Both the position numbers and the translations under genes were made by a program. Under the pieces are notes generated by a model. That model saw only the letters and a list, made by a program, of their open reading frames with translations, searched no databases and was not told the DNA's origin. This document shows positions 21,203 to 30,700 of a stretch of 64,000 nucleotides of DNA, in pieces; the first letter of the stretch is position 1, and each line of letters begins with the position of its first letter. Source of the DNA: Verrucomicrobiia bacterium (GTDB taxonomy: Bacteria; Verrucomicrobiota; Verrucomicrobiia; Limisphaerales; JAEYXS01). The DNA is taken from assembly GCA_036405135.1 (NCBI GenBank), contig DASWYF010000025.1, positions 17,665 through 81,664 of the forward strand, in the 5' to 3' direction.

Positions 21203-22519
21203 TTAAGCCTTCATACCGTGGCCATTCTGAGCTCGGCAGCGGCGGGCGATGATCCAGACGACAATACCCGCCGCGAAAAAGAGGATCGGCAAGGTAGCCA
21301 AACTGCGTCGGAAGATTTCATCCTCATTTCCAGGCATGCTCATGCCGTGGATCTGGTAGATGCCCGCATACACAAGCAGCATGAAGCCGTAACCAAAATT
21401 GAAGATAAGCCCGCGAAAACTCAGCACTGTAGCGCGCTGCCGCGAATCCACCAACTGGTTCAGGTAGTGCGACATGAAGAAATTCATAAAGCCCATGCCG
21501 ATGCGCATGAGGAGCGGGAACATAAGCCCAAAGTAAGGCAAGGCCACGCCCAGACCGATCAGGCCCAAGGCGTTCAATAGAGCTACGAGACTGAAGTTAA
21601 AACCTTGCGGGCGATTCTCCGCGAGCCAGCGCGACAAGATAGGCAGACCAAAACCCATGGCGGCAAACACCGCACCGATGATGCCGAAGGAAAATTCAGG
21701 CAGTTTAATCAGCCGGTAATATTCCGAACCTACCGTGAGATAAACGCGTGTGAAACTATCGTGCAACAAACCCACCACCAGCAGGCCGAGCACGGCTGGC
21801 GTACGCAGAATCCAGCCACCAGCCTGCCGCATGAGATCTATAGTGCCGCTGGCTTCGGCCGTATCCTGATGAGTGACCAGCTTTGCTTCCTTCAAACTCA
21901 AGCAGGCAAAGAAAATGACCGCCGCCGAAATGAGCGTGAGAATCACCGGCAGGCGCATGGTGAGGGATTTATCCACCTGCCAGTCCAAGCCCAGCATGCC
22001 ACCGATGGATTGGATGAAGATGGGATCGAACACCGCTGCGCCGACGAGCATCGCCACGGTAAAGCCCAAGGCCTGCCAACGCATCATGGCTTCCAGAATG
22101 CGCGGCCATTCGTTTTGCATCCCTGCCTCCACCAAAGAATCATAGGCGAGCGCTTCATCCGCGCCGCTGGCCAAGGCCTCTGCTGCGCCACTAAGGATTC
22201 GATTCAAGAGGAATGCACCGAGCACCAGTGCATGATTACCAACGGGCACAAAAGCGATGATGGCCATTTCCAGAACCATCAATGCAGCGGCTAACTTGAC
22301 CATCAAACTGCGGCCAAAACGATCCGCCAAAGCACCGGAAGGGACTTCCAAGCCCACGATCGCGGCTGCCCAAGCGACGTTCAGCAAGGCGAACTCGCCC
22401 ATGGAAAGACCGTAATCCAGGAACATCACCGCGAAGACAGGATAATAGAAGCGCGCGTTGAAGAGCATCCGGAACAGCACAAAGAGCCGTACGTTCCGGG
22501 GGTACTTCGAGAGATTCAT
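21203..22519 (-). CDS. MFS transporter
   Basis: It has about 12 predicted TM segments and the MFS loop motif GALADRFGRSLM. The start was moved to the internal ATG at 22519 (MNLSKYPRNVRLFVLF...). Confidence 0.85.
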   Translation of the reverse strand: MNLSKYPRNVRLFVLFRMLFNARFYYPVFAVMFLDYGLSMGEFALLNVAWAAAIVGLEVPSGALADRFGRSLMVKLAAALMVLEMAIIAFVPVGNHALVLGAFLLNRILSGAAEALASGADEALAYDSLVEAGMQNEWPRILEAMMRWQALGFTVAMLVGAAVFDPIFIQSIGGMLGLDWQVDKSLTMRLPVILTLISAAVIFFACLSLKEAKLVTHQDTAEASGTIDLMRQAGGWILRTPAVLGLLVVGLLHDSFTRVYLTVGSEYYRLIKLPEFSFGIIGAVFAAMGFGLPILSRWLAENRPQGFNFSLVALLNALGLIGLGVALPYFGLMFPLLMRIGMGFMNFFMSHYLNQLVDSRQRATVLSFRGLIFNFGYGFMLLVYAGIYQIHGMSMPGNEDEIFRRSLATLPILFFAAGIVVWIIARRCRAQNGHGMKA

Positions 22520-22579: not shown

Positions 22580-25315
22580 TCAAGGCTCAGACAAAGAACG
22601 GACCGGAGCTTGGGGATTTTCTTTTTGCTCACGAATGACGCGCTGCAAGCGCTGCTGGCAGAGCCAAGCTTCGATCTCATCGCCGGGGACCTCATCCGGC
22701 TGGCGATTGGAACGCACTCGGAATTTCCAGTCCGCCAAGTCATCAATGCGGTTCAGCCCATCAAGGATGCGAAGGACCTCAAAAGCGCAAAAGGTATCGC
22801 GGGCATCGCCGCGAATGGAAAGTTTCCGCTCACCTTGCATGGGTCTGCCAAAGAAAAACCCTTCGCCGCGATGCAGCCGAAGAACACCTTGGATGCAGGC
22901 CTCGCGGTCAATGCGATCCAAACCGCCCAACAATTCGAGCGCCGCCACGACATTATAAGTATCTGCCAGAACCGGTGAATTCACCGTCGCAAACAGACCT
23001 CGTGCCTGACGCCAGTTCGGCAACGGAGGGCGATCCGCATAAGCCGCAGCAGAGGTCACCTGCCAGGAAGCCAGTTGCCGGATGAGTTTCTCGCGCTCCA
23101 ACAGATCAAGGCTGTTCACTTGACGCAAAAATCGCAACCGCGCCATCTGCCATGACTCCAAGATTTCTATCGTGTATTCAGCATCGTCAATGCGCACGAG
23201 CCTTTTCGAAAGCATCCATCTCGCGGATGCGTGCCGATCCTTATGGAGATATTCCGCCATTTGTTCCGGTGTCACTTGAAAGTCAGCGAGCGTGAACCAT
23301 CCCGCTGCCAGTGCTGGCCCAAGCATTTGTGAATAGTTCAACCGGACCAGCTTTTCAGGCACAGCCACCTCCGCGCCAAACCCCTGAGATTGCAGCAAGT
23401 GGCTCTGCAATATCCTCAAGGTTTCCGGCTCGAAATCTTCTTTCGCCGGACGAACGAAAGAATGCAGTAAGGCAGACACTGCTCTATCGCCCAGCATATC
23501 TTTGTCAGATTTATGGCTGAATTCTCGCAAGGCAGAGCGGATTTCCATTTCACTACGAGCGACCGGCTTGAGGTTTTCAAACCAAAGCGGGCGACAATAC
23601 AGAGCGAGCAAAAGTCCGGCAAACAAGGGCAAACAAATCCCCATGACTAGCCGTTGCCAACGAACGCCTTTGGAATGAACGGGAGGAACTAGGAACACCA
23701 CTTCATCAGAAATCTCTCCCAGACTCCGTCGGGCCAAGACCAAATCACCCGCTCGGAAATCTCGCCAAGACTGCGCCACCGCCGCCTCGACTTGTTTTTC
23801 GAGAGTGGCGGTGGCGCATAACCCACCTGCCTCCATGGCGTGCAAAGCGGTCAAATCTTCCCGCCCTAAATGCGCCGACACCAAGCCGTCCCATTGCAAA
23901 ACAACAGATGACAAACCCATTCTAAAAGGGATAAAGACTCGCATCATATTGCTCAAAAAAGAGCCCTTCACCGGAGGTAGAAACAACTGTAGCCCTTGCT
24001 TATTCCAGCGATAGTCATTAGCCAGCCATTTGCTCCCCAAGAAGCGGGCGAAGGATAGCAATCCGTCACTATTCAACGTCGTAACCAACTGTGCCTCAAT
24101 TTTTCTCTTCGGCACCAAGAGATTTTGGACGGCGCGAAGGAACAGGTTGTAATCCATTCGAACCGGGCGTTCGCCCGAAAAGAGCGAGATAAAACTGGAA
24201 AAGATCACGGATAGAGATACAGCCGTCATCGGCAAAACATCCAAGGCTACCGCCACGAAAACGGCATAGATCACGCAAGTTCCCAAGACACTTACCACAT
24301 AAAACCGGTTACGATTGATGGTCAACAAACGCAATCCAAGGGCGGTAGGGATTGATAATAGGAGCGTCAGAATGCAGAGAGTTTTTCGTAGCCCCCACGT
24401 GGCTGTCCCCAATTGTTGGAGCACTACAAACAAGGCCAGAAGCAGAGGGAATCCCCACAAGAAACTCCGGCTGAAATGGTCATGCAAACGAGTTCGAAAA
24501 CCGTCCGGCTCGCGAAAGTTTTCCCGCTCCAGCTGGCGTGAACGCCACGCCAATAGCATGCCCGGCAACAGGCCGATCAATCCAAGGAACGGCGCCAGCA
24601 AAGATGGTAGCACCGATTTACTCACGGAGGAAAACACTTTGGCTCCCAGTCCCAGCCCCGCACCAGTCACCGCTGCTTGCGCTGAAGAAGCGGTTAATAT
24701 CGAAAGCATGATGGCAGGCACCAAGGGCTTGGACGGTCGCAACTTGGTGAGTGATTCATCCAACGCGAGCTCAAGTTTCTCGCGTAACGCGCCTTTTGCC
24801 CGCAGCAGACGCACGCGAAATGCCGATTCTGAAATCCCCAGAGCTTTCGCCGCCTCTTCACCGCTTTTACCTTCCAGATAGAACAGGACCAGACACTCGC
24901 GATGCACCGGGGACAATTGGGTCAGGGTTTTTTGAAGGGTATCCGGATCGTAACTCTCATGAGAATCATCGGAGGTTTGAGCCACAGGCTGATCCAAGGC
25001 CCAGCGCTCGCGCTTTTCCAATTCACGACGATGCCGCAGGCCAACATTGATGGCGGTATTGCGGGCTATGGAGGCGATCCAGCCGGAAAATTTGGTTCCA
25101 TCTGCCAGCAACCACAGACGGTGAAAGCCTTTGATGAAAGTTTCTTGTGTCGCCTCTTCGGCCAGCGCCACGTCTCCCAAACGGCTCCATGCCACACCGA
25201 AAACGCGCCTTTCATGGCGCTCCACCAGTTCACGGTAACGCTCCGCATCACCCGCACGCACTGCAGCTACAGCAGCGGCGTCCTGTCCCAGTTCATCCAT
25301 CGTTTCGGTGCCCAT
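22580..25315 (-). CDS. ECF-type sigma-70 factor fused to a ~720-aa polytopic membrane and C-terminal repeat domain (911 aa)
   Basis: Residues 1-190 contain region 2 (AERYRELVERHERRVFGVAWSRLGDVALAEEATQETFIKGF) and the region 4 helix-turn-helix (HRECLVLFYLEGKSGEEAAKALGISESAFRVRLLRAKGAL). At least 6 hydrophobic helices follow (e.g. VLPSLLAPFLGLIGLLPGMLLAW, FYVVSVLGTCVIYAVFVAVALDVL, LVMGICLPLFAGLLLALYC). The soluble C-terminus has prenyltransferase/alpha-toroid-like repeats (VVAALELLGGLDRIDREACIQGVLRLHRGEGFF). Confidence 0.85.
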   Translation of the reverse strand: MGTETMDELGQDAAAVAAVRAGDAERYRELVERHERRVFGVAWSRLGDVALAEEATQETFIKGFHRLWLLADGTKFSGWIASIARNTAINVGLRHRRELEKRERWALDQPVAQTSDDSHESYDPDTLQKTLTQLSPVHRECLVLFYLEGKSGEEAAKALGISESAFRVRLLRAKGALREKLELALDESLTKLRPSKPLVPAIMLSILTASSAQAAVTGAGLGLGAKVFSSVSKSVLPSLLAPFLGLIGLLPGMLLAWRSRQLERENFREPDGFRTRLHDHFSRSFLWGFPLLLALFVVLQQLGTATWGLRKTLCILTLLLSIPTALGLRLLTINRNRFYVVSVLGTCVIYAVFVAVALDVLPMTAVSLSVIFSSFISLFSGERPVRMDYNLFLRAVQNLLVPKRKIEAQLVTTLNSDGLLSFARFLGSKWLANDYRWNKQGLQLFLPPVKGSFLSNMMRVFIPFRMGLSSVVLQWDGLVSAHLGREDLTALHAMEAGGLCATATLEKQVEAAVAQSWRDFRAGDLVLARRSLGEISDEVVFLVPPVHSKGVRWQRLVMGICLPLFAGLLLALYCRPLWFENLKPVARSEMEIRSALREFSHKSDKDMLGDRAVSALLHSFVRPAKEDFEPETLRILQSHLLQSQGFGAEVAVPEKLVRLNYSQMLGPALAAGWFTLADFQVTPEQMAEYLHKDRHASARWMLSKRLVRIDDAEYTIEILESWQMARLRFLRQVNSLDLLEREKLIRQLASWQVTSAAAYADRPPLPNWRQARGLFATVNSPVLADTYNVVAALELLGGLDRIDREACIQGVLRLHRGEGFFFGRPMQGERKLSIRGDARDTFCAFEVLRILDGLNRIDDLADWKFRVRSNRQPDEVPGDEIEAWLCQQRLQRVIREQKENPQAPVRSLSEP

Positions 25316-25362
25316 ACTTCACGAGCAAGACACCGAGGACGAGGATTTGTTACATAGAAAAA

Positions 25363-25812
25363 TTAAGCGTAGCTGCTGCCGGTGATGTAGCTCTCCAGCT
25401 GGATGATGGTGGCGTCTTGGGCGGCTACGACCCATTTGATGAGATCGCCCAAGGAGACGACACCCACCACGTTGCCATCATGCATCACGGGCAGATGGCG
25501 CACGCGGCGTTCGCTCATGATACGAAGGGCATCCTCAATACTGAGATTCAACGGTGCCGTGATGACGGGCGAGGTCATGATCTCATCCACCAAGGTCTGA
25601 CGGGATTGGCGGCCTTTCAGGATGACTTTGCGCGTGTAGTCGCGTTCTGAAAGCACGCCGAGCAATTCGCCCTCCCGCATGACCATCACGCTGCCGACAT
25701 TATGATCGGCCATCATCTGGATGGCCTCGAAGACGGTCGCATGAGGAGAGATGCTCCAGAGCGCCTGGTTTTTCTGGCTAAGAAGGTGGTCGAGAGTCCC
25801 GTGAGTTTGCAT
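25363..25812 (-). CDS. CBS-domain pair protein
   Basis: It contains two CBS motifs: ...ATVFEAIQMMADHNVGSVMVMREGELLGVLSERD... and ...SIEDALRIMSERRVRHLPVMHDGNVVGVVSLGDL... Confidence 0.85.
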   Translation of the reverse strand: MQTHGTLDHLLSQKNQALWSISPHATVFEAIQMMADHNVGSVMVMREGELLGVLSERDYTRKVILKGRQSRQTLVDEIMTSPVITAPLNLSIEDALRIMSERRVRHLPVMHDGNVVGVVSLGDLIKWVVAAQDATIIQLESYITGSSYA

Positions 25813-26770: not shown

Positions 26771-29764
26771 TCAGTTCCCTTTCAGAAAACCGATCAAGTC
26801 CGCCAGCTCCTGCTTCGTCATCGTCTTCTCCAGTTCCTGCGGCATGAGCGACAGGCTCGTGGATGCCATCTTCGCGATATTCGCCCTCAAAATCGTGTCC
26901 TCCTGGCCCAAGGCCCGCTTCAACGTCACGCTCGATGCCGTCTCCGATGCCAGCAATCCCGTGAGGCTTTCGCCATCTTTCGTCTCCACTTCGTAACTGA
27001 TGTAGCCCGGATAAATCTCGAACTCGGGCACCAAGATGTGCAGGAGCAGCACTTCCGCCGTCTGGTTCTTCACACCCGTAAGATCCGGCCCCACATTCGC
27101 GCCATCGCTACCGAGCTTGTGACACGACGCACACGCTTTCTTGAACATCTCATGGCCGTTCTTAGCGTCCGACTTCAGCGCCAAGACCGATTTGTATTCC
27201 TCATACACCTTCATGCGATCTCCGCCGCCTCCGCCTTGGAACAGCACTTCCGCGCGCGTGCGGATCTTCTCATCCTTATGCTTCGTCAATTGCGTCCGTC
27301 GTGCAGGGGTCAGCGACCATACCTGCACATGTCCCGCCTCGACCGCATCCAGCAACGCCGGCAGGAAACGCACCTGTGACATCGCCGTGCTGATCACGGC
27401 CTCACGCACCGGCGGCGAATACGCGCGCCAACGTTCACGGCCCAGCAACGTCTCGCCCACCTTCACCTCGTTCATCACACCCAGCGAACGGATCGCCGCG
27501 ATCTGCAATTCTTTCGCCTGCTTCGGATCAACCAGGCTCAGCAAAATATCTCCCGCCTGTGCGTAATCCGCCTGTGCCAGCAATCCGATGGCCGCGAGGC
27601 GCCGGGCATCACCTGCTTCCACATTCTGCACCGCCTTCAAGGCGCGTTCGAAAAGTGCCTTCACCACGCCAGTGGCTTCAGCGGAATACGCCGTTTCCAT
27701 CGCCACCAAATTCAACACGGGCGAACTTTCCTTCCCCTTTACCTTGCCGCGCAAGCCCTCCGCCACGCCGCTCAGAAATGCCAGCGGCCAGTCCGGCTCC
27801 GTCTCTGCGTTCACCAGCGTCAGCAGGTAGATCATTTTCTCCGGCGGCTGGCTCGCTGCCAGTATCTGCCCCATCGACTGCATGAGCACGGGATTCACCG
27901 GCGTACCGCGATTCCCCTCCTCCACCAGGCCTTTGAACAATTCATCCGCCTGAGCACCGATGGATGTCAGCACAGCGGCACGTGTCCACTTGTCCTCGCC
28001 GTCACGCAACGCGATGCGCAACAGAGGTGCGATGCTCCGCGAATCCTTTCCTTCCCCGAGAGCCAGCGCACATTGGAACCGCACCCGCGCATCCCGGTCC
28101 TCCGCCGAGCGGCTGATCACCTCCACCAGGAATTGCGAATCCGTATAACTGCGTTCCGCGATGGCCAAACCCATCTCCCGGATGTCCGCCGAGGAATTCG
28201 CCAGCAGCCCGCGCATGAAATTTTCATCCCGCGGCCGCGTGGCAAAAGAAGCCGAAACCGCCGCCGCCGCGCCGTAATCATTTCCCCGTGCGCGTGACAA
28301 CCGCTGCATCTCCGTGCGGTTCATCCCGTCCGGGTTCTCGATCAGGCGCCGCCGCGCCACTTCTCGCACCCAGCCGTTCGTGGCCATCAGCTTGCGCATG
28401 GCCTCATCGGCACTCAACTTTGCCAGGTTTGGCAGCCGTTTCTCCGCCAATTCCTTTGCCGGGATCTCCGCGCCCACCACGCGATAGATACGGCCCATGT
28501 CTTTGCCGCTCTCGAAATCTGCCGTCTTGCGGATGTTCTCCGGCAGATACTGCGGGTGATCCACCACCCGGCGATACATGTCGCAGATATACAGCGCGCC
28601 CTCCGGCCCCGTCGTCGCATACACCGGGCGGAACCAGCTATCCGCCGTCGCCAGAAAATCGCTCTTCTCATCCGCCGGTTCCGAACGGAACGAAGCCCCG
28701 TTGAGCAGGAGCACCTGCCGCTGCACCAGGTTCTGCGCCGGCTCACACACGAAGACATCACCCACATGTTTCGGTGTCAGCGCACTGCCGTAAAATATAT
28801 GACTGCCGCACGCCGAGGTGAATGACCCCGCATGCGGCGCGCTCATCAAGCTGGGCATGAATGACGCCGTCGTGCCATCCGCGCTCAACGGATGTACCTT
28901 GCCCGCATCACCCGAAGGCGCGACATCCTGCACCATCTCGGAAAAAGCATAATGCGGATTCCGCTTCAGATGCCGCGGCTCCAGCACGATGTGTTGCAAC
29001 GGATTGCGATTCGAGGTGGTGAACCTCCGTCCAAACGCATCGAACGTCATCCCGTATTGGCCCGTGCCGCCGAGCACTTCGAATTCAAACGTGCGCGGAT
29101 TGAAGCGCGAATCATTCTTCGTGAACTTCACCGCCGCCATCTTCCGATTCTTCGGCGACGTGATCTCTCCCCCCGTCAACCCGCTCGTCAGATAGATCCA
29201 GCCATCCGGCCCAAGCGTCGGATGACTCACGCGCAACTGCGTCGTCTGGTTCGTGCCGAACCCCGTCAACCACACCTCCCGCACATCCGCTTTGCCATCG
29301 CCATTCGTGTCTTTGAAGTAAAGCACATCCGGCGCGCACGTCACGATCCAGCCACCCATCCACCGCTGCAAACCGTTCGGATACGTCAGCCCATCCGCGA
29401 ACACCGTGCGCTTCTCGTAGTAACCATCGCCATCCACATCCTCCAGTTGCGCCAAGACACCCACCGGCGGCTTCCCCTCGCCCGGTCCCGTGGGATACCC
29501 GCGATTCTCCGCCACCAGCATCTTCCCCGATTCATCCCACGCCACCGCCACCGGACTCGCGATCTGCGGTTCCGCCGCCGCCAGTTCCAGCCGAAGCCCG
29601 TCCTCCAGCTTGAACCGCTTCACCGCCTCCTTCGCTGGCACCGCGACATCTGCCGCACACAGGGACACCACACCCGCCAGCCACAACATCGCCATGGCCC
29701 CGGTCAACCCGCTCCGTGTCCAACCTGTGAAATTCATGCGCATAATATCAACCTGTGCTGCCAC
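26771..29764 (-). CDS. PVC-type heme-binding CxxCH protein (membrane-bound-dehydrogenase-like N-domain, HEAT repeats, C-terminal cytochrome c domain)
   Basis: The N-terminus reads FKLEDGLRLELAAAEPQIASPVAVAWDESGKMLVAENRGYP. The C-terminus reads GHEMFKKACASCHKLGSDGANVGPDLTGV...SLMPQELEKTMTKQELADLIGFLKGN. The exact start is uncertain: ATGs at 29764, 29743 and 29737 are all possible. Confidence 0.85.
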   Translation of the reverse strand: MAAQVDIMRMNFTGWTRSGLTGAMAMLWLAGVVSLCAADVAVPAKEAVKRFKLEDGLRLELAAAEPQIASPVAVAWDESGKMLVAENRGYPTGPGEGKPPVGVLAQLEDVDGDGYYEKRTVFADGLTYPNGLQRWMGGWIVTCAPDVLYFKDTNGDGKADVREVWLTGFGTNQTTQLRVSHPTLGPDGWIYLTSGLTGGEITSPKNRKMAAVKFTKNDSRFNPRTFEFEVLGGTGQYGMTFDAFGRRFTTSNRNPLQHIVLEPRHLKRNPHYAFSEMVQDVAPSGDAGKVHPLSADGTTASFMPSLMSAPHAGSFTSACGSHIFYGSALTPKHVGDVFVCEPAQNLVQRQVLLLNGASFRSEPADEKSDFLATADSWFRPVYATTGPEGALYICDMYRRVVDHPQYLPENIRKTADFESGKDMGRIYRVVGAEIPAKELAEKRLPNLAKLSADEAMRKLMATNGWVREVARRRLIENPDGMNRTEMQRLSRARGNDYGAAAAVSASFATRPRDENFMRGLLANSSADIREMGLAIAERSYTDSQFLVEVISRSAEDRDARVRFQCALALGEGKDSRSIAPLLRIALRDGEDKWTRAAVLTSIGAQADELFKGLVEEGNRGTPVNPVLMQSMGQILAASQPPEKMIYLLTLVNAETEPDWPLAFLSGVAEGLRGKVKGKESSPVLNLVAMETAYSAEATGVVKALFERALKAVQNVEAGDARRLAAIGLLAQADYAQAGDILLSLVDPKQAKELQIAAIRSLGVMNEVKVGETLLGRERWRAYSPPVREAVISTAMSQVRFLPALLDAVEAGHVQVWSLTPARRTQLTKHKDEKIRTRAEVLFQGGGGGDRMKVYEEYKSVLALKSDAKNGHEMFKKACASCHKLGSDGANVGPDLTGVKNQTAEVLLLHILVPEFEIYPGYISYEVETKDGESLTGLLASETASSVTLKRALGQEDTILRANIAKMASTSLSLMPQELEKTMTKQELADLIGFLKGN

Positions 29765-30409: not shown

Positions 30410-30585
30410 GTCCGAGCGTTCCCTTGTTCGCAGCCTAAGCTGCCTTGCCTTCCTGCAAGTCAGCACGGGGAACCCAAACTCCCGGGTCACACCGGGACGG
30501 GGCGCACGATGCCAGGCAACTGGCCTTCGGGGTCACTTCTGAGACCTAGCCCGTCAGCTAACCTCGTCGGCGTTTGGAAGGGCGG
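30410..30585 (+). promoter_or_regulatory. c-di-AMP riboswitch (ydaO-yuaA class)
   Basis: ACGGGGAACCCA (30465-30476), CGGGGTCA (30528-30535) and GCCCGTCAGCTAACCTCGTCGGCG (30549-30572) match the hallmark blocks of the ydaO riboswitch as I remember them from B. subtilis (GGGGGACCCA / GGGGUGAAUC / ACCCGUCAGCUAACCUCGUAAGCG). It sits 5' of a K+ transporter gene, which is the canonical regulon. The boundaries are approximate. Confidence 0.85.
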
Positions 30586-30700
30586 TCCTCTGCGCCGTGA
30601 AGTCCACGGCGTCCACGATCACCCCGTTTGAAAACTGATTGGCCTGTGCCGTTGGCGGAGCTTTTGAGCCTCGCTGGCGACGCCGTCCTTGAACATGGAC

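What the first reader, a model, noticed from the sequence alone, without database searches (positions are those of the whole stretch)
22580..25315. ECF sigma factor fused in one polypeptide to a ~720-aa multi-pass membrane and repeat domain, embedded between CBS and MFS genes
**Seen in sequence.**
- A single 911-codon ORF begins with a complete ECF-type sigma region 2 and region 4 (aa ~20-190).
- It continues without a stop into at least 6 hydrophobic helices (aa ~195-380), a soluble segment, another helix (LVMGICLPLFAGLLLALYC, aa ~585-603) and a ~300-aa C-terminal domain.
- The C-terminal domain has alpha-toroid/prenyltransferase-like repeats (...VVAALELLGGLDRIDREACIQGVLRLHRGEGFFFG...DTFCAFEVLRILDGLNRID...).
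- A CBS-pair gene ends 47 nt upstream. An MFS transporter gene starts 60 nt downstream on the same strand.

**Established knowledge.**
- ECF sigma factors are normally held by a separate anti-sigma factor.
- Some ECF groups carry C-terminal extensions that replace it.

**Inference.**
- This is a membrane-tethered, self-contained sigma/anti-sigma/sensor.
- It would need proteolysis or a conformational change to act.
- The size and polytopic nature of the extension are unusual, and I cannot assign it to a described ECF group from memory.
Basis: partly seen in the sequence, partly recalled or inferred. Interest (0 to 1): 0.65.

Follow-up and report, generated by a model that had tools for sequence, protein, structure and literature searches.

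The report
Membrane-embedded ECF sigma factor with sensor
This is a real, conserved Verrucomicrobial gene in which a stress-type (ECF) sigma factor is joined in one protein to seven membrane helices, an unknown cytoplasmic domain and an outward-facing prenyltransferase-like barrel, and it carries its own conserved ECF-type promoter; it is an unstudied variant of the known "sigma factor with built-in regulator" theme.

Summary
ORF 22580-25315 (-) encodes 911 aa, in this order:
- ECF sigma regions 2 and 4;
- six hydrophobic helices;
- a 170-aa soluble domain;
- a 337-aa domain with prenyltransferase-type alpha/alpha repeats.

The fusion is not an assembly artefact. More than 120 full-length homologues (40-59% identity, about 100% coverage) come from independent assemblies.

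The extension matches only 325 of 1.84 billion representative proteins. Every match that could be judged is fused to the sigma domain or is a fragment.

The family is confined to one Verrucomicrobial order (record titles name Pedosphaera and Limisphaerales) and is patchy there: 45 of 401 genomes, and 3 of 8 in the window's own genus.

New here:
- A motif, GTAAC-N16-TGTCTT, ends 7-15 nt before the ATG in all 17 distinct upstream regions examined. This looks like an autoregulated, nearly leaderless ECF promoter. No other site of this kind exists in this genome.
- The first helix is signal-peptide-like and almost as conserved as the sigma domain.
- The module after helix 7 is interchangeable across the family.
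- The cytoplasmic middle domain has no solved structural relative.

Most likely this is a membrane-tethered pro-sigma released by regulated proteolysis. That mechanism is inferred, not shown. The closest catalogued group is ECF263; membership could not be tested.

The parts
25349..25353 (-). -35-like element GTAAC of the conserved ECF-type promoter
   Evidence: Read directly. GTAAC-N16-TGTCT is present in all 17 distinct upstream regions of orthologous genes. The exact extended motif lies upstream of the gene in 14 of 21 other genomes.
25327..25332 (-). -10-like element TGTCTT; it ends 11 nt before the ATG, which implies a leaderless or at most ~5-nt-leader mRNA
   Evidence: The distance from the end of TGTCT to the ATG is 8-16 nt in the 17 regions. 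This is the only site of its kind in the 5.8-Mb genome.
22580..25315 (-). 911-aa fused ECF sigma / 7-TM / toroid gene (stop codon included)
   Evidence: Homologues. Single copy in the genome. The ATG at 25315 is supported by invariant residues from aa 12-30; the 881-aa gene call in the protein database (P0001) would remove them.
25043..25228 (-). sigma region 2 (aa 30-91)
   Evidence: Pfam PF04542, E 5.7e-11. PDB profile hits to SigW, SigE and RpoE.
24785..24937 (-). sigma region 4 (aa 127-177)
   Evidence: Pfam PF08281, E 1.1e-11.
24668..24724 (-). TM1 (aa 198-216): a short, signal-peptide-like hydrophobic segment with a conserved A-x-A (A212-Q/K213-A214)
   Evidence: Hydropathy 1.66. AF2 pLDDT <50 over 192-233. 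Family consensus KLRPAKTLVPAVMAGVLASSSAKAATAGG. P194 58/58, P200 55/58, M203 58/58, A212 51/58, K213 51/58, A214 48/58. Mean column conservation 0.76.
24176..24610 (-). TM2-TM6 bundle (aa 236-380), including the Arg-rich cytoplasmic loop 258-283
   Evidence: helices with pLDDT mostly 77-92. Loop charges follow the positive-inside rule for an N-in topology.
23657..24175 (-). Juxtamembrane motif RPxRMDYNLFLRA plus a cytoplasmic alpha/beta 'middle' domain (aa 381-553) of unknown fold family
   Evidence: Invariant D388 and R394. AF2 pLDDT 80, pTM 0.77. No Pfam hit. Foldseek against the PDB: best E 0.49.
23594..23650 (-). TM7 (aa 556-574)
   Evidence: Hydropathy 2.36. AF2 helix 549-574. K/R-rich on the N-terminal side: net +3.4 before against +0.3 after.
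22583..23593 (-). C-terminal, predicted periplasmic alpha/alpha-toroid-like domain (aa 575-911); canonical prenyltransferase repeats at aa 722-858 (22742-23152)
   Evidence: Pfam PF00432. Profile hit to GGTase-I beta, E 7.5e-5. Foldseek to GGTase beta subunits: 181-345 aligned columns, TM 0.32-0.48 on the target.
25363..25812 (-). upstream CBS-pair gene (neighbour; no evidence that it is part of the system)
   Evidence: Pfam CBS, E 1.6e-28. This position is kept in the one close relative examined and not in the two more distant ones.
21203..22519 (-). downstream MFS transporter gene, probably co-transcribed with the sigma gene in this genus
   Evidence: Pfam MFS_1. The 60-nt gap has no terminator-like site and no family promoter motif. 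Kept in the closest relative examined and not in the two more distant ones.

Best explanation
The gene encodes a one-polypeptide transmembrane signalling sigma factor.

Shown or well supported:
- A complete and very strongly conserved ECF sigma domain (aa 1-190) is attached, through about 10 residues, to a polytopic membrane module.
- The best-supported topology is N-in, seven helices, C-out. This puts the sigma domain, the Arg-rich TM2-TM3 loop and the 170-aa middle domain in the cytoplasm, and the prenyltransferase-like alpha/alpha toroid in the periplasm.
- The gene sits directly behind a family-wide ECF-type promoter, GTAAC-N16-TGTCTT. The promoter is so close to the ATG that the mRNA must be leaderless or nearly so. 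The sigma factor therefore most likely transcribes its own gene, and in this genus the MFS transporter behind it.

Inferred:
- In the resting state the sigma domain is inactive because it is tethered to the membrane, and probably also packed against cytoplasmic parts of the extension.
- A periplasmic signal read by the toroid domain, which is replaceable across the family, is passed through TM7 and the middle domain.
- That signal triggers regulated proteolysis in or next to the unusually conserved, Pro- and Ala-rich, signal-peptide-like TM1. A site-1 cut at the conserved A-x-A is followed by a site-2 (M50/RseP-type) intramembrane cut.
- The free sigma domain then binds RNA polymerase and amplifies its own synthesis.
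For: Fusion real and conserved:
-.
- The extension occurs only fused to the sigma domain or as fragments.

Sigma domain functional:
- Mean column conservation 0.85, the highest of any part of the protein.
- Best matches are true ECF sigmas.

Own promoter:
- The motif is present in 17 of 17 distinct upstream regions, although the upstream genes differ.
- The exact motif lies upstream of the gene in 14 of 21 further genomes.

Topology:
- Mean K+R counts are 3.4, 7.0, 1.2, 4.0 and 3.5 in the five predicted cytoplasmic segments, against 1.6, 0.9, 0.1 and 2.7 (net +0.3) in the predicted periplasmic ones.
- One family fragment continues after the toroid into PD40/TolB-type propeller repeats. By general knowledge (not tested here) these repeats are typically extracytoplasmic.

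Modular sensor:
- Relatives stop shortly after TM7 (585-609 aa) or carry a different helical domain there (740-762 aa).

Cleavable TM1:
- Conservation 0.76, against 0.37-0.51 for the other helices.
- Invariant P194 and M203, P200 in 55/58, A-K-A in 48-51 of 58.
- M50 proteases are encoded in the genome.

Precedents for proteolytic release of fused sigma factors: IutY and ECF52 SCO4117 (PMC8999054).
Against: - No experiment or transcript data exist for any member that I could find.
- No anti-sigma domain is recognisable by sequence or fold.
- TM1 is only marginally hydrophobic, and AlphaFold models it with pLDDT <50. If TM1 is not inserted in the membrane, the topology flips, although that would violate the positive-inside pattern.
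- The A-x-A motif could simply be a small-residue interface.
- M50 proteases are universal, so their presence proves nothing.
- No second promoter of this type exists in the genome, so no regulon, and therefore no physiological role, could be defined.
- The promoter assignment rests on conservation and resemblance, not on a mapped transcription start.
Confidence: 0.5

Rival explanations
1. The sigma factor is never released. It works, or is switched on and off, as a permanent integral membrane protein, in the manner of ToxR/CadC-type one-component regulators. A signal-dependent rearrangement of the TM bundle and middle domain exposes sigma2/sigma4 to RNA polymerase at the membrane.
For: - The whole 7-TM plus middle-domain core is conserved with the sigma domain and never occurs apart from it. 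That fits a machine working as one piece.
- No site-1 protease gene or other conserved partner is seen in the neighbourhoods.
- The only strict target is the gene's own promoter, so the DNA target lies next to the site of co-translational membrane insertion.
Against: - Only about 10 residues separate sigma4 from TM1, which leaves little room for sigma4 to reach the beta-flap and the -35 DNA. This is an inference.
- The read literature gives proteolysis, shown or expected, as the route for membrane-fused sigma factors (PMC8999054).
- The sequence-specific conservation of TM1, with prolines and A-x-A, is more easily explained by a cleavage substrate.
Confidence: 0.2
2. The N-terminal domain is a sigma-like decoy, as in PhyR, rather than a working sigma factor. 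The protein would titrate an anti-sigma factor or another partner at the membrane.
For: A weak Pfam hit to PhyR_sigma-like: E 0.0057, 16.9 bits against a cut-off of 27.
Against: - Both regions score well above the Pfam cut-offs for genuine sigma regions 2 and 4_2, and above the ECF superfamily cut-off.
- The domain is the best-conserved part of the protein.
- A matching ECF-type promoter is conserved in front of the gene in 17 of 17 cases, which is what an autoregulating, DNA-binding sigma predicts.
Confidence: 0.05
3. The C-terminal domain is a cytoplasmic, catalytically active prenyltransferase or terpene-cyclase-type enzyme. The protein would couple isoprenoid metabolism to transcription from the inside.
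For: - Pfam PF00432 hit above its cut-off.
- Foldseek and profile matches to geranylgeranyltransferase beta subunits.
Against: - Only about 115 of 304 profile positions (2-3 repeats) match.
- TM-scores are modest (0.32-0.48) and rmsd is 8-10 A.
- The charge distribution places the domain outside the cytoplasm.
- Relatives lack the domain or replace it.
- One relative extends it with PD40 repeats, which by general knowledge (not tested here) are typically extracytoplasmic.
- The conserved Cys807 sits in the ordinary 'C-Q' repeat signature, not in a metal triad. This is my reading of the sequence and was not tested.
Confidence: 0.05
4. The long ORF is an assembly or frameshift artefact that joins a normal sigma gene to an anti-sigma gene.
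For: None found. Reads could not be inspected.
Against: - The same continuous frame of about 900-990 aa appears in more than 100 independent assemblies and genomes without internal stops, apart from two distant matches with one TAA each.
- No split version was found among 1.84 billion representatives.
Confidence: 0.01

Closest known systems
ECF263 (ECF classification 2.0, Casas-Pastor et al. 2021, PMC7826278)
   Same: [quoted passage not shown] The protein here has seven predicted helices after sigma4 and no recognisable anti-sigma gene among its scanned neighbours.
   Different: - Membership is defined by the sigma-core HMM and phylogeny. Those HMMs and the supplementary group description are not held here.
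- The passages found by term search in that paper mention no toroid ectodomain, no middle domain and no promoter for ECF263; the supplementary group description was not available.
- No other paper in the library mentions ECF263.
IutY of Pseudomonas putida (ECF243 sigma/anti-sigma hybrid)
   Same: The sigma factor and its membrane regulator form one polypeptide. It is activated by regulated proteolysis (Prc, then RseP), which frees the sigma domain (PMC8999054). This is the working model adopted here.
   Different: IutY is a FecI-type sigma fused to a FecR-type anti-sigma, and works with a TonB-dependent receptor (the latter from my own knowledge). Here no Pfam family matches outside the sigma and prenyltransferase regions, there are seven helices, the ectodomain is different, and no receptor gene lies nearby.
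ECF48 / ECF52 / ECF53 of Actinobacteria (e.g. SCO4117)
   Same: The C-terminal extension contains transmembrane helices and an extracytoplasmic binding domain. Release by proteolysis is expected (PMC8999054).
   Different: Those groups carry a zinc-finger (ZAS-like) anti-sigma domain, one or two helices, and carbohydrate-binding or other ectodomains. Here no zinc-finger anti-sigma model hits and no HxxxCxxC motif is visible in the sequence printed. The membrane part is polytopic and the phylum is different.
RsiV-SigV (Bacillus subtilis), from my own knowledge
   Same: It is a precedent for signal peptidase acting as the site-1 protease at an A-x-A site next to a membrane helix, followed by a site-2 protease. 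This is the step proposed for the conserved A-K-A after TM1.
   Different: RsiV is a separate, single-pass anti-sigma factor that binds lysozyme. Nothing here shows that signal peptidase cuts this protein.
Prenyltransferase beta subunits / alpha-alpha toroid repeat proteins (PF00432)
   Same: The repeat signature and the fold of the C-terminal domain match.
   Different: The match is partial (2-3 repeats by sequence). The domain is predicted to be periplasmic. There is no alpha subunit, and no evidence of catalysis.

Membership tests
ECF (group 4) sigma-70 factors | Regions sigma2 and sigma4 are present, without sigma1.1 or sigma3 | tested here: met
   PF04542 at aa 30-91 and PF08281 at aa 127-177. 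TIGR02937 scores 75.3 bits against a cut-off of 42.9. No region 3 or region 1 hit. PDB profile hits to SigW, SigE and RpoE.
ECF (group 4) sigma-70 factors | An ECF-type promoter ('AAC' in the -35, 'GTC/CGT' in the -10, about 16-17 nt apart) upstream of its own gene (autoregulation) | tested here: met
   GTAAC-N16-TGTCTT lies at 25353-25327 (-). It is conserved in 17 of 17 distinct upstream regions and in 14 of 21 further genomes. Use of this promoter by this sigma factor is inferred, not measured.
ECF263 (classification 2.0) | [quoted passage not shown] | tested here: met
   Seven hydrophobic helices after sigma4.
ECF263 (classification 2.0) | The sigma core scores with the group's HMM or falls in its clade | not testable with these tools
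   The ECF Hub HMMs and the paper's supplements are not held.
IutY-type FecI/FecR hybrids (ECF243) | A FecR-type anti-sigma domain follows the sigma domain, with a single TM helix | tested here: not met
   No Pfam family matches the extension outside the prenyltransferase region, even at E<=10. There are seven helices instead of one.
ECF48/52/53 fused ZAS-type sigma factors | A zinc-finger (HxxxCxxC) anti-sigma domain after sigma4, with one or two TM helices | tested here: not met
   No zf-HC2 or RskA hit. No HxxxCxxC motif is visible in the sequence printed. Seven helices.
Class I anti-sigma domain (ASD) | A recognisable ASD helical bundle that binds between sigma2 and sigma4 | tested here: inconclusive
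   No sequence-model hit. The middle domain has no PDB fold match. Model coordinates could not be inspected for intramolecular contacts. The sigma part of the model superposes somewhat better on anti-sigma-bound forms (TM 0.45-0.52) than on holoenzyme forms (0.31-0.44), which is weak evidence.
Prenyltransferase / terpene-cyclase alpha-alpha toroid (PF00432) | Repeat signature and toroid fold | tested here: met
   PF00432 scores 37.5-40.2 bits against a cut-off of 26.5. GGTase-I beta E 7.5e-5. Foldseek to GGTase beta subunits, E 8.7e-4, 345 aligned columns, TM 0.48. Only 2-3 repeats are detectable by sequence.
Prenyltransferase / terpene-cyclase alpha-alpha toroid (PF00432) | Catalytic zinc site and an alpha-subunit partner (an active enzyme) | not tested
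   The matched profile stretch (positions 34-149 of 304) was not checked for whether it includes the zinc-ligand region. No residue-level structural comparison was possible.

The most novel reading that the evidence does not exclude
This would be a sigma factor built as a polytopic membrane receptor, with two linked features. First, its periplasmic prenyltransferase-like toroid would read the state of envelope isoprenoid lipids, such as polyprenyl-phosphate carriers or hopanoid/squalene-type lipids. Second, activation would use the cell's ordinary signal peptidase as the site-1 protease, cutting at the conserved, normally shielded A-x-A behind a built-in internal signal peptide (TM1). A site-2 protease would then act. 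The released sigma would drive a leaderless, self-amplifying transcript. If so, an RpoE/RseA/DegS-type envelope circuit would be compressed into one polypeptide with a new cytoplasmic transducer fold.
Probability: 0.1. Interest if true: 0.75.

Novelty: new variant of a known kind. Interest (0 to 1): 0.45.

Why it matters
ECF sigma factors with fused regulators are the least understood mode of sigma control, and none with a polytopic membrane module has been studied experimentally, as far as I could find.

This family offers a compact, testable system:
- a defined promoter (GTAAC-N16-TGTCTT);
- a defined candidate cleavage helix;
- an interchangeable ectodomain;
- a cytoplasmic transducer domain with no solved structural relative.

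It would also give a first handle on signal transduction in the Pedosphaera/Limisphaerales-type soil and freshwater Verrucomicrobia. It could become an orthogonal one-protein membrane sensor switch for synthetic biology.

The limits are clear. The family is narrow and patchy (about 11% of genomes in one order). Its signal and its regulon are unknown. The general design principle is already established.

Tried and rejected
1. Regulon search. Three approaches were used:
   - a PWM of the 17 promoter sites;
   - a core-only PWM;
   - exact or relaxed patterns over the whole 5.8-Mb genome.
   Only the gene's own promoter was found, and hit counts equalled those in the reversed-genome control.
   In 21 other genomes the non-auto hits are no more frequent than the control (7 against 15). 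They sit in front of unrelated genes: a dioxygenase-like gene, a TolC-like gene and an HlyD-like gene, my reading of the translations. No regulon can be claimed.

2. Conserved operon. The neighbourhood differs between relatives at about 45% identity. The CBS and MFS genes are rejected as conserved parts of the system.

3. Fold assignment of the middle domain. Pfam found nothing even at E<=10. Foldseek against the PDB gave a best E of 0.49. The many very weak hits to RNAP beta-lobe chains (probability 0.03-0.05) are treated as noise.

4. Split (unfused) versions of the extension. None were found among 1.84 billion representatives. Short hits are fragments or shorter fused variants.

5. 'Main envelope-stress sigma of the order', an earlier agent's bold reading. 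Three of the six genomes of the same genus that are at least 90% complete and at most 5% contaminated lack the gene, as do 89% of sampled genomes in the order. This argues for an accessory role.

6. Literature. No paper in the library describes a sigma-prenyltransferase fusion, or ECF263 beyond one sentence. The supplements of PMC7826278 are not held. The Pinto 2019 review is not held.

7. Read support and transcript 5' ends.

8. Rfam scan of the window. Nothing lies in or near the gene.


Full report
**Observation**

The window holds one uninterrupted reading frame at 22580-25315 on the minus strand, encoding 911 aa.

Domain matches:
- Pfam finds sigma-70 region 2 (aa 30-91), region 4_2 (aa 127-177) and a prenyltransferase alpha/alpha-toroid match (aa 722-858), all above their curated cut-offs.
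- NCBIfam places the N-terminus in the ECF superfamily (TIGR02937, 75.3 bits against 42.9). No specific equivalog or subfamily reaches its cut-off.

A 19-residue hydropathy scan gives six hydrophobic segments between aa 198 and 380, and one more at aa 556-574.

The stated gaps to the CBS-pair gene (47 nt) and the MFS gene (60 nt) are exact.

**Not an artefact**

- A search of 5.8 billion clustered proteins returned 272 relatives. The 120 best are 881-1126 aa long, 40-59% identical (one is the window's own protein at 100%) and cover 93-100% of the query. They come from NCBI, JGI, ENA and Logan assemblies, and named records are labelled Verrucomicrobia, Verrucomicrobiota or Limisphaerales.
- In a six-frame search of genomes of the same order, matches to the extension alone lie almost always in open frames of 900-990 aa.
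- A filter-only HMMER search of 1.84 billion representatives, using only the extension (aa 195-911), found 325 proteins. Those with complete N-termini begin the match near their residue 200, so they are fused. The rest are fragments. No free-standing 'anti-sigma only' version turned up.
The comparative evidence makes a missed stop or frameshift very unlikely.

**Distribution**

- The gene is single-copy in this genome. The fifteen other ECF genes that match do so only over the sigma part.
- An even sample of the phylum gave 2 of 401 genomes, one of them the window's own.
- The order gave 45 of 401 genomes and 27 of 166 genera.
- Within the window's own genus and family, 3 of 8 genomes carry it. 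Three genomes that are 93-97% complete lack it.
- It is therefore an accessory gene of one Verrucomicrobial order. Record titles name Pedosphaera, Limisphaerales and Verrucomicrobiae.

**Anatomy**

A 58-sequence alignment (A1) and a full-length AlphaFold model (mean pLDDT 80) give the following parts.

1. Sigma domain, aa 1-190. This is the best-conserved part, with mean column conservation 0.85. Residues are invariant from aa 12 onward, which fixes the ATG at 25315 as the start. The 881-aa gene call in the protein database (P0001) would cut into region 2.
2. TM1 segment, about 10 residues after sigma4.
   - The family consensus is KLRPAKTLVPAVMAGVLASSSAKAATAGG.
   - It has a basic n-region, a hydrophobic core of about 12-14 residues with Pro194 (58/58), Pro200 (55/58) and Met203 (58/58), and then A-K-A (48-51 of 58).
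   - Its conservation is 0.76, far above the other helices at 0.37-0.51.
   - Its hydrophobicity is marginal (1.66) and AlphaFold is unsure of it, with pLDDT <50.
3. TM2-TM6 bundle (aa 236-380), confidently modelled. It contains an Arg-rich loop (aa 258-283) with invariant N266 and G272-F273-R274.
4. Juxtamembrane motif RPxRMDYNLFLRA, followed by an alpha/beta domain (aa 381-553).
   - Modelled alone it gives pLDDT 80 and pTM 0.77.
   - It has no Pfam match and no significant Foldseek match in the PDB, with a best E of 0.49.
5. TM7, aa 556-574.
6. C-terminal domain, aa 575-911.
   - It carries canonical prenyltransferase repeats.
   - A profile search hits GGTase-I beta at E 7.5e-5.
   - Foldseek aligns 181-345 columns to geranylgeranyltransferase beta subunits at TM 0.32-0.48.

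**Topology**

Averaged over the family, K+R counts in the flanking segments are:

| Segment | Mean K+R | Predicted side |
|---|---|---|
| before TM1 | 3.4 | cytoplasm |
| TM1-TM2 | 1.6 | periplasm |
| TM2-TM3 | 7.0 | cytoplasm |
| TM3-TM4 | 0.9 | periplasm |
| TM4-TM5 | 1.2 | cytoplasm |
| TM5-TM6 | 0.1 | periplasm |
| after TM6 | 4.0 | cytoplasm |
| before TM7 | 3.5 | cytoplasm |
| after TM7 | 2.7 (net +0.3) | periplasm |

This alternation fits N-in, seven helices, C-out. The middle domain is then cytoplasmic and the toroid periplasmic.

An outside location for the last module is independently suggested by two observations:
- Relatives end shortly after TM7 (585-609 aa) or carry an unrelated helical domain there (740-762 aa).
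- One fragment continues from the toroid into PD40/TolB-type propeller repeats. By general knowledge (not tested here) such repeats are typically extracytoplasmic.

The conserved core is therefore sigma, TM1, TM2-6, middle domain and TM7. The ectodomain is exchangeable.

**Promoter**

- The 47-nt gap in front of the gene contains GTAAC (25353-25349), 16 nt, then TGTCTT (25332-25327). The motif ends 11 nt before the ATG.
- The same GTAAC-N16-TGTCT(T) is present in all 17 distinct upstream regions of family genes collected here. It ends 8-16 nt (counted from TGTCT) before the start codon. The genes upstream of the family gene differ between loci.
- The exact extended motif GTAAC-N3-T-N12-TGTCTT lies in front of the family gene in 14 of 21 further genomes. 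These include distant members whose extension is only 27% identical.
- 'AAC' in the -35 and 'GTC' in the -10, 16 nt apart, is the classical ECF promoter shape. This is general knowledge; compare RpoE-type GGAAC-N16-GTCT.
- The position leaves room for no leader, or at most about 5 nt, and no Shine-Dalgarno sequence. That probably explains why a gene caller chose a wrong internal start.
- I read this as positive autoregulation from a leaderless transcript. No transcription start has been mapped.

**What it controls**

This remains open.
- PWM and pattern scans of the whole genome find only this one site, at control frequency otherwise.
- Extra hits in other genomes are no more frequent than the control and lie before unrelated genes.
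- The gene order CBS, sigma, MFS, HEAT-repeat gene is kept in the one close relative examined, with one extra gene between the MFS and HEAT genes (59% identity). The two relatives examined at 45-46% identity have other neighbours: DUF1015 and a cation-efflux gene, or DUF1844 and SurA.
- In this organism the MFS gene probably rides on the sigma transcript, since the 60-nt gap has no terminator-like site and no motif. This is not a family property.

**Mechanism**

Shown:
- a complete, selected sigma domain;
- covalent linkage to a polytopic membrane module;
- an exchangeable C-terminal module;
- a conserved ECF-type promoter.

Inferred: the tethered sigma is inactive, and an envelope signal leads to its release by regulated intramembrane proteolysis at TM1.

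The arguments for release are:
- the very short sigma4-TM1 linker;
- the exceptional, sequence-specific conservation of TM1, with helix-destabilising prolines and a signal-peptidase-like A-x-A;
- the precedents of IutY (Prc plus RseP) and the ECF52 protein SCO4117 (PMC8999054);
- from my own knowledge, RsiV, whose site-1 protease is signal peptidase.

M50 site-2 proteases are encoded in the genome, but they are universal.

The sigma part of the model superposes slightly better on anti-sigma-bound ECF structures than on holoenzyme structures. I give this little weight.

The main rival is that the protein acts without cleavage, as a permanently membrane-bound sigma factor. The data do not exclude this.

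**Comparison with what is known**

- The design, an ECF sigma with a fused regulatory extension, is established (PMC7826278, PMC8999054).
[quoted passage not shown] That feature is met. Membership depends on HMMs I cannot run.
- The protein fails the defining features of IutY-type hybrids (no FecR domain, not single-pass) and of ECF48/52/53 (no zinc-finger anti-sigma domain).
- Earlier notes of this scan on orthologues in other genomes (e1-2252982, e1-2203321) reached the same general reading and named the same closest group. I treated them as leads and re-derived the points above independently.
- My distribution data argue against one of their bolder ideas, that this is the principal envelope-stress sigma of the order.

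**Verdict**

This is a real, conserved and experimentally untouched variant of a known kind. It has several concrete, testable features: the promoter, the candidate cleavage helix, the modular ectodomain and an unassigned cytoplasmic fold. Its signal and its regulon are unknown.

Noticed in passing
window 30422-30587 (+): A c-di-AMP (ydaO/yuaA-class) riboswitch aptamer scores above the Rfam gathering threshold (43.3 bits against 38). An earlier first-reader note of this scan places it ahead of a TrkH/KtrB-type gene.
   Followed up: no
window 26771-29764 (-): A 997-aa ORF next to the locus. It has a signal-anchor-like N-terminus and a C-terminal CxxCH motif (…CASCHK…), so it looks like a large PVC-type exported haem-binding protein. 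It was not scanned against any library.
   Followed up: no
G000 contigs C3:41955-42560 (1134-aa frame), C24:178224-178844 (578-aa frame), C22:88663-89139 (624-aa frame): Three other ECF sigma domains in the same genome sit in much longer open frames, so sigma factors with large fused extensions seem common in this organism. These extensions do not match the one studied here.
   Followed up: no
G593:C486 (838-2997 and 4107-5315) and G555:C62 (5843-8002 and 3860-5002): In two related genomes a full-length (930-aa) family member and a shorter paralogue (686-729 aa, matching only the TM and middle-domain part) lie next to each other. Paralogues presumably share the same promoter specificity.
   Followed up: partly
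protein P0162 (465 aa): A family member in which the TM4 region runs directly into the last toroid repeats. About 450 residues are missing, including the middle domain and TM7. It is either a natural deletion or an assembly collapse.
   Followed up: no
window 24286-24312 (-), inside the sigma gene: A second GTAAC-N17-TGTCT match lies within the coding region, around codon 335 (genome coordinate C25:41976). Its spacing differs from the family motif and it occurs at chance frequency, so it is probably meaningless.
   Followed up: partly
locus L014 (CAZQNQ010000012.1): A contig carrying a full-length family member, and identical over the N-terminus to the G717 copy, is titled 'uncultured Bifidobacterium sp.'. 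This is almost certainly a mislabelled MAG, since all other carriers are Verrucomicrobiota.
   Followed up: no
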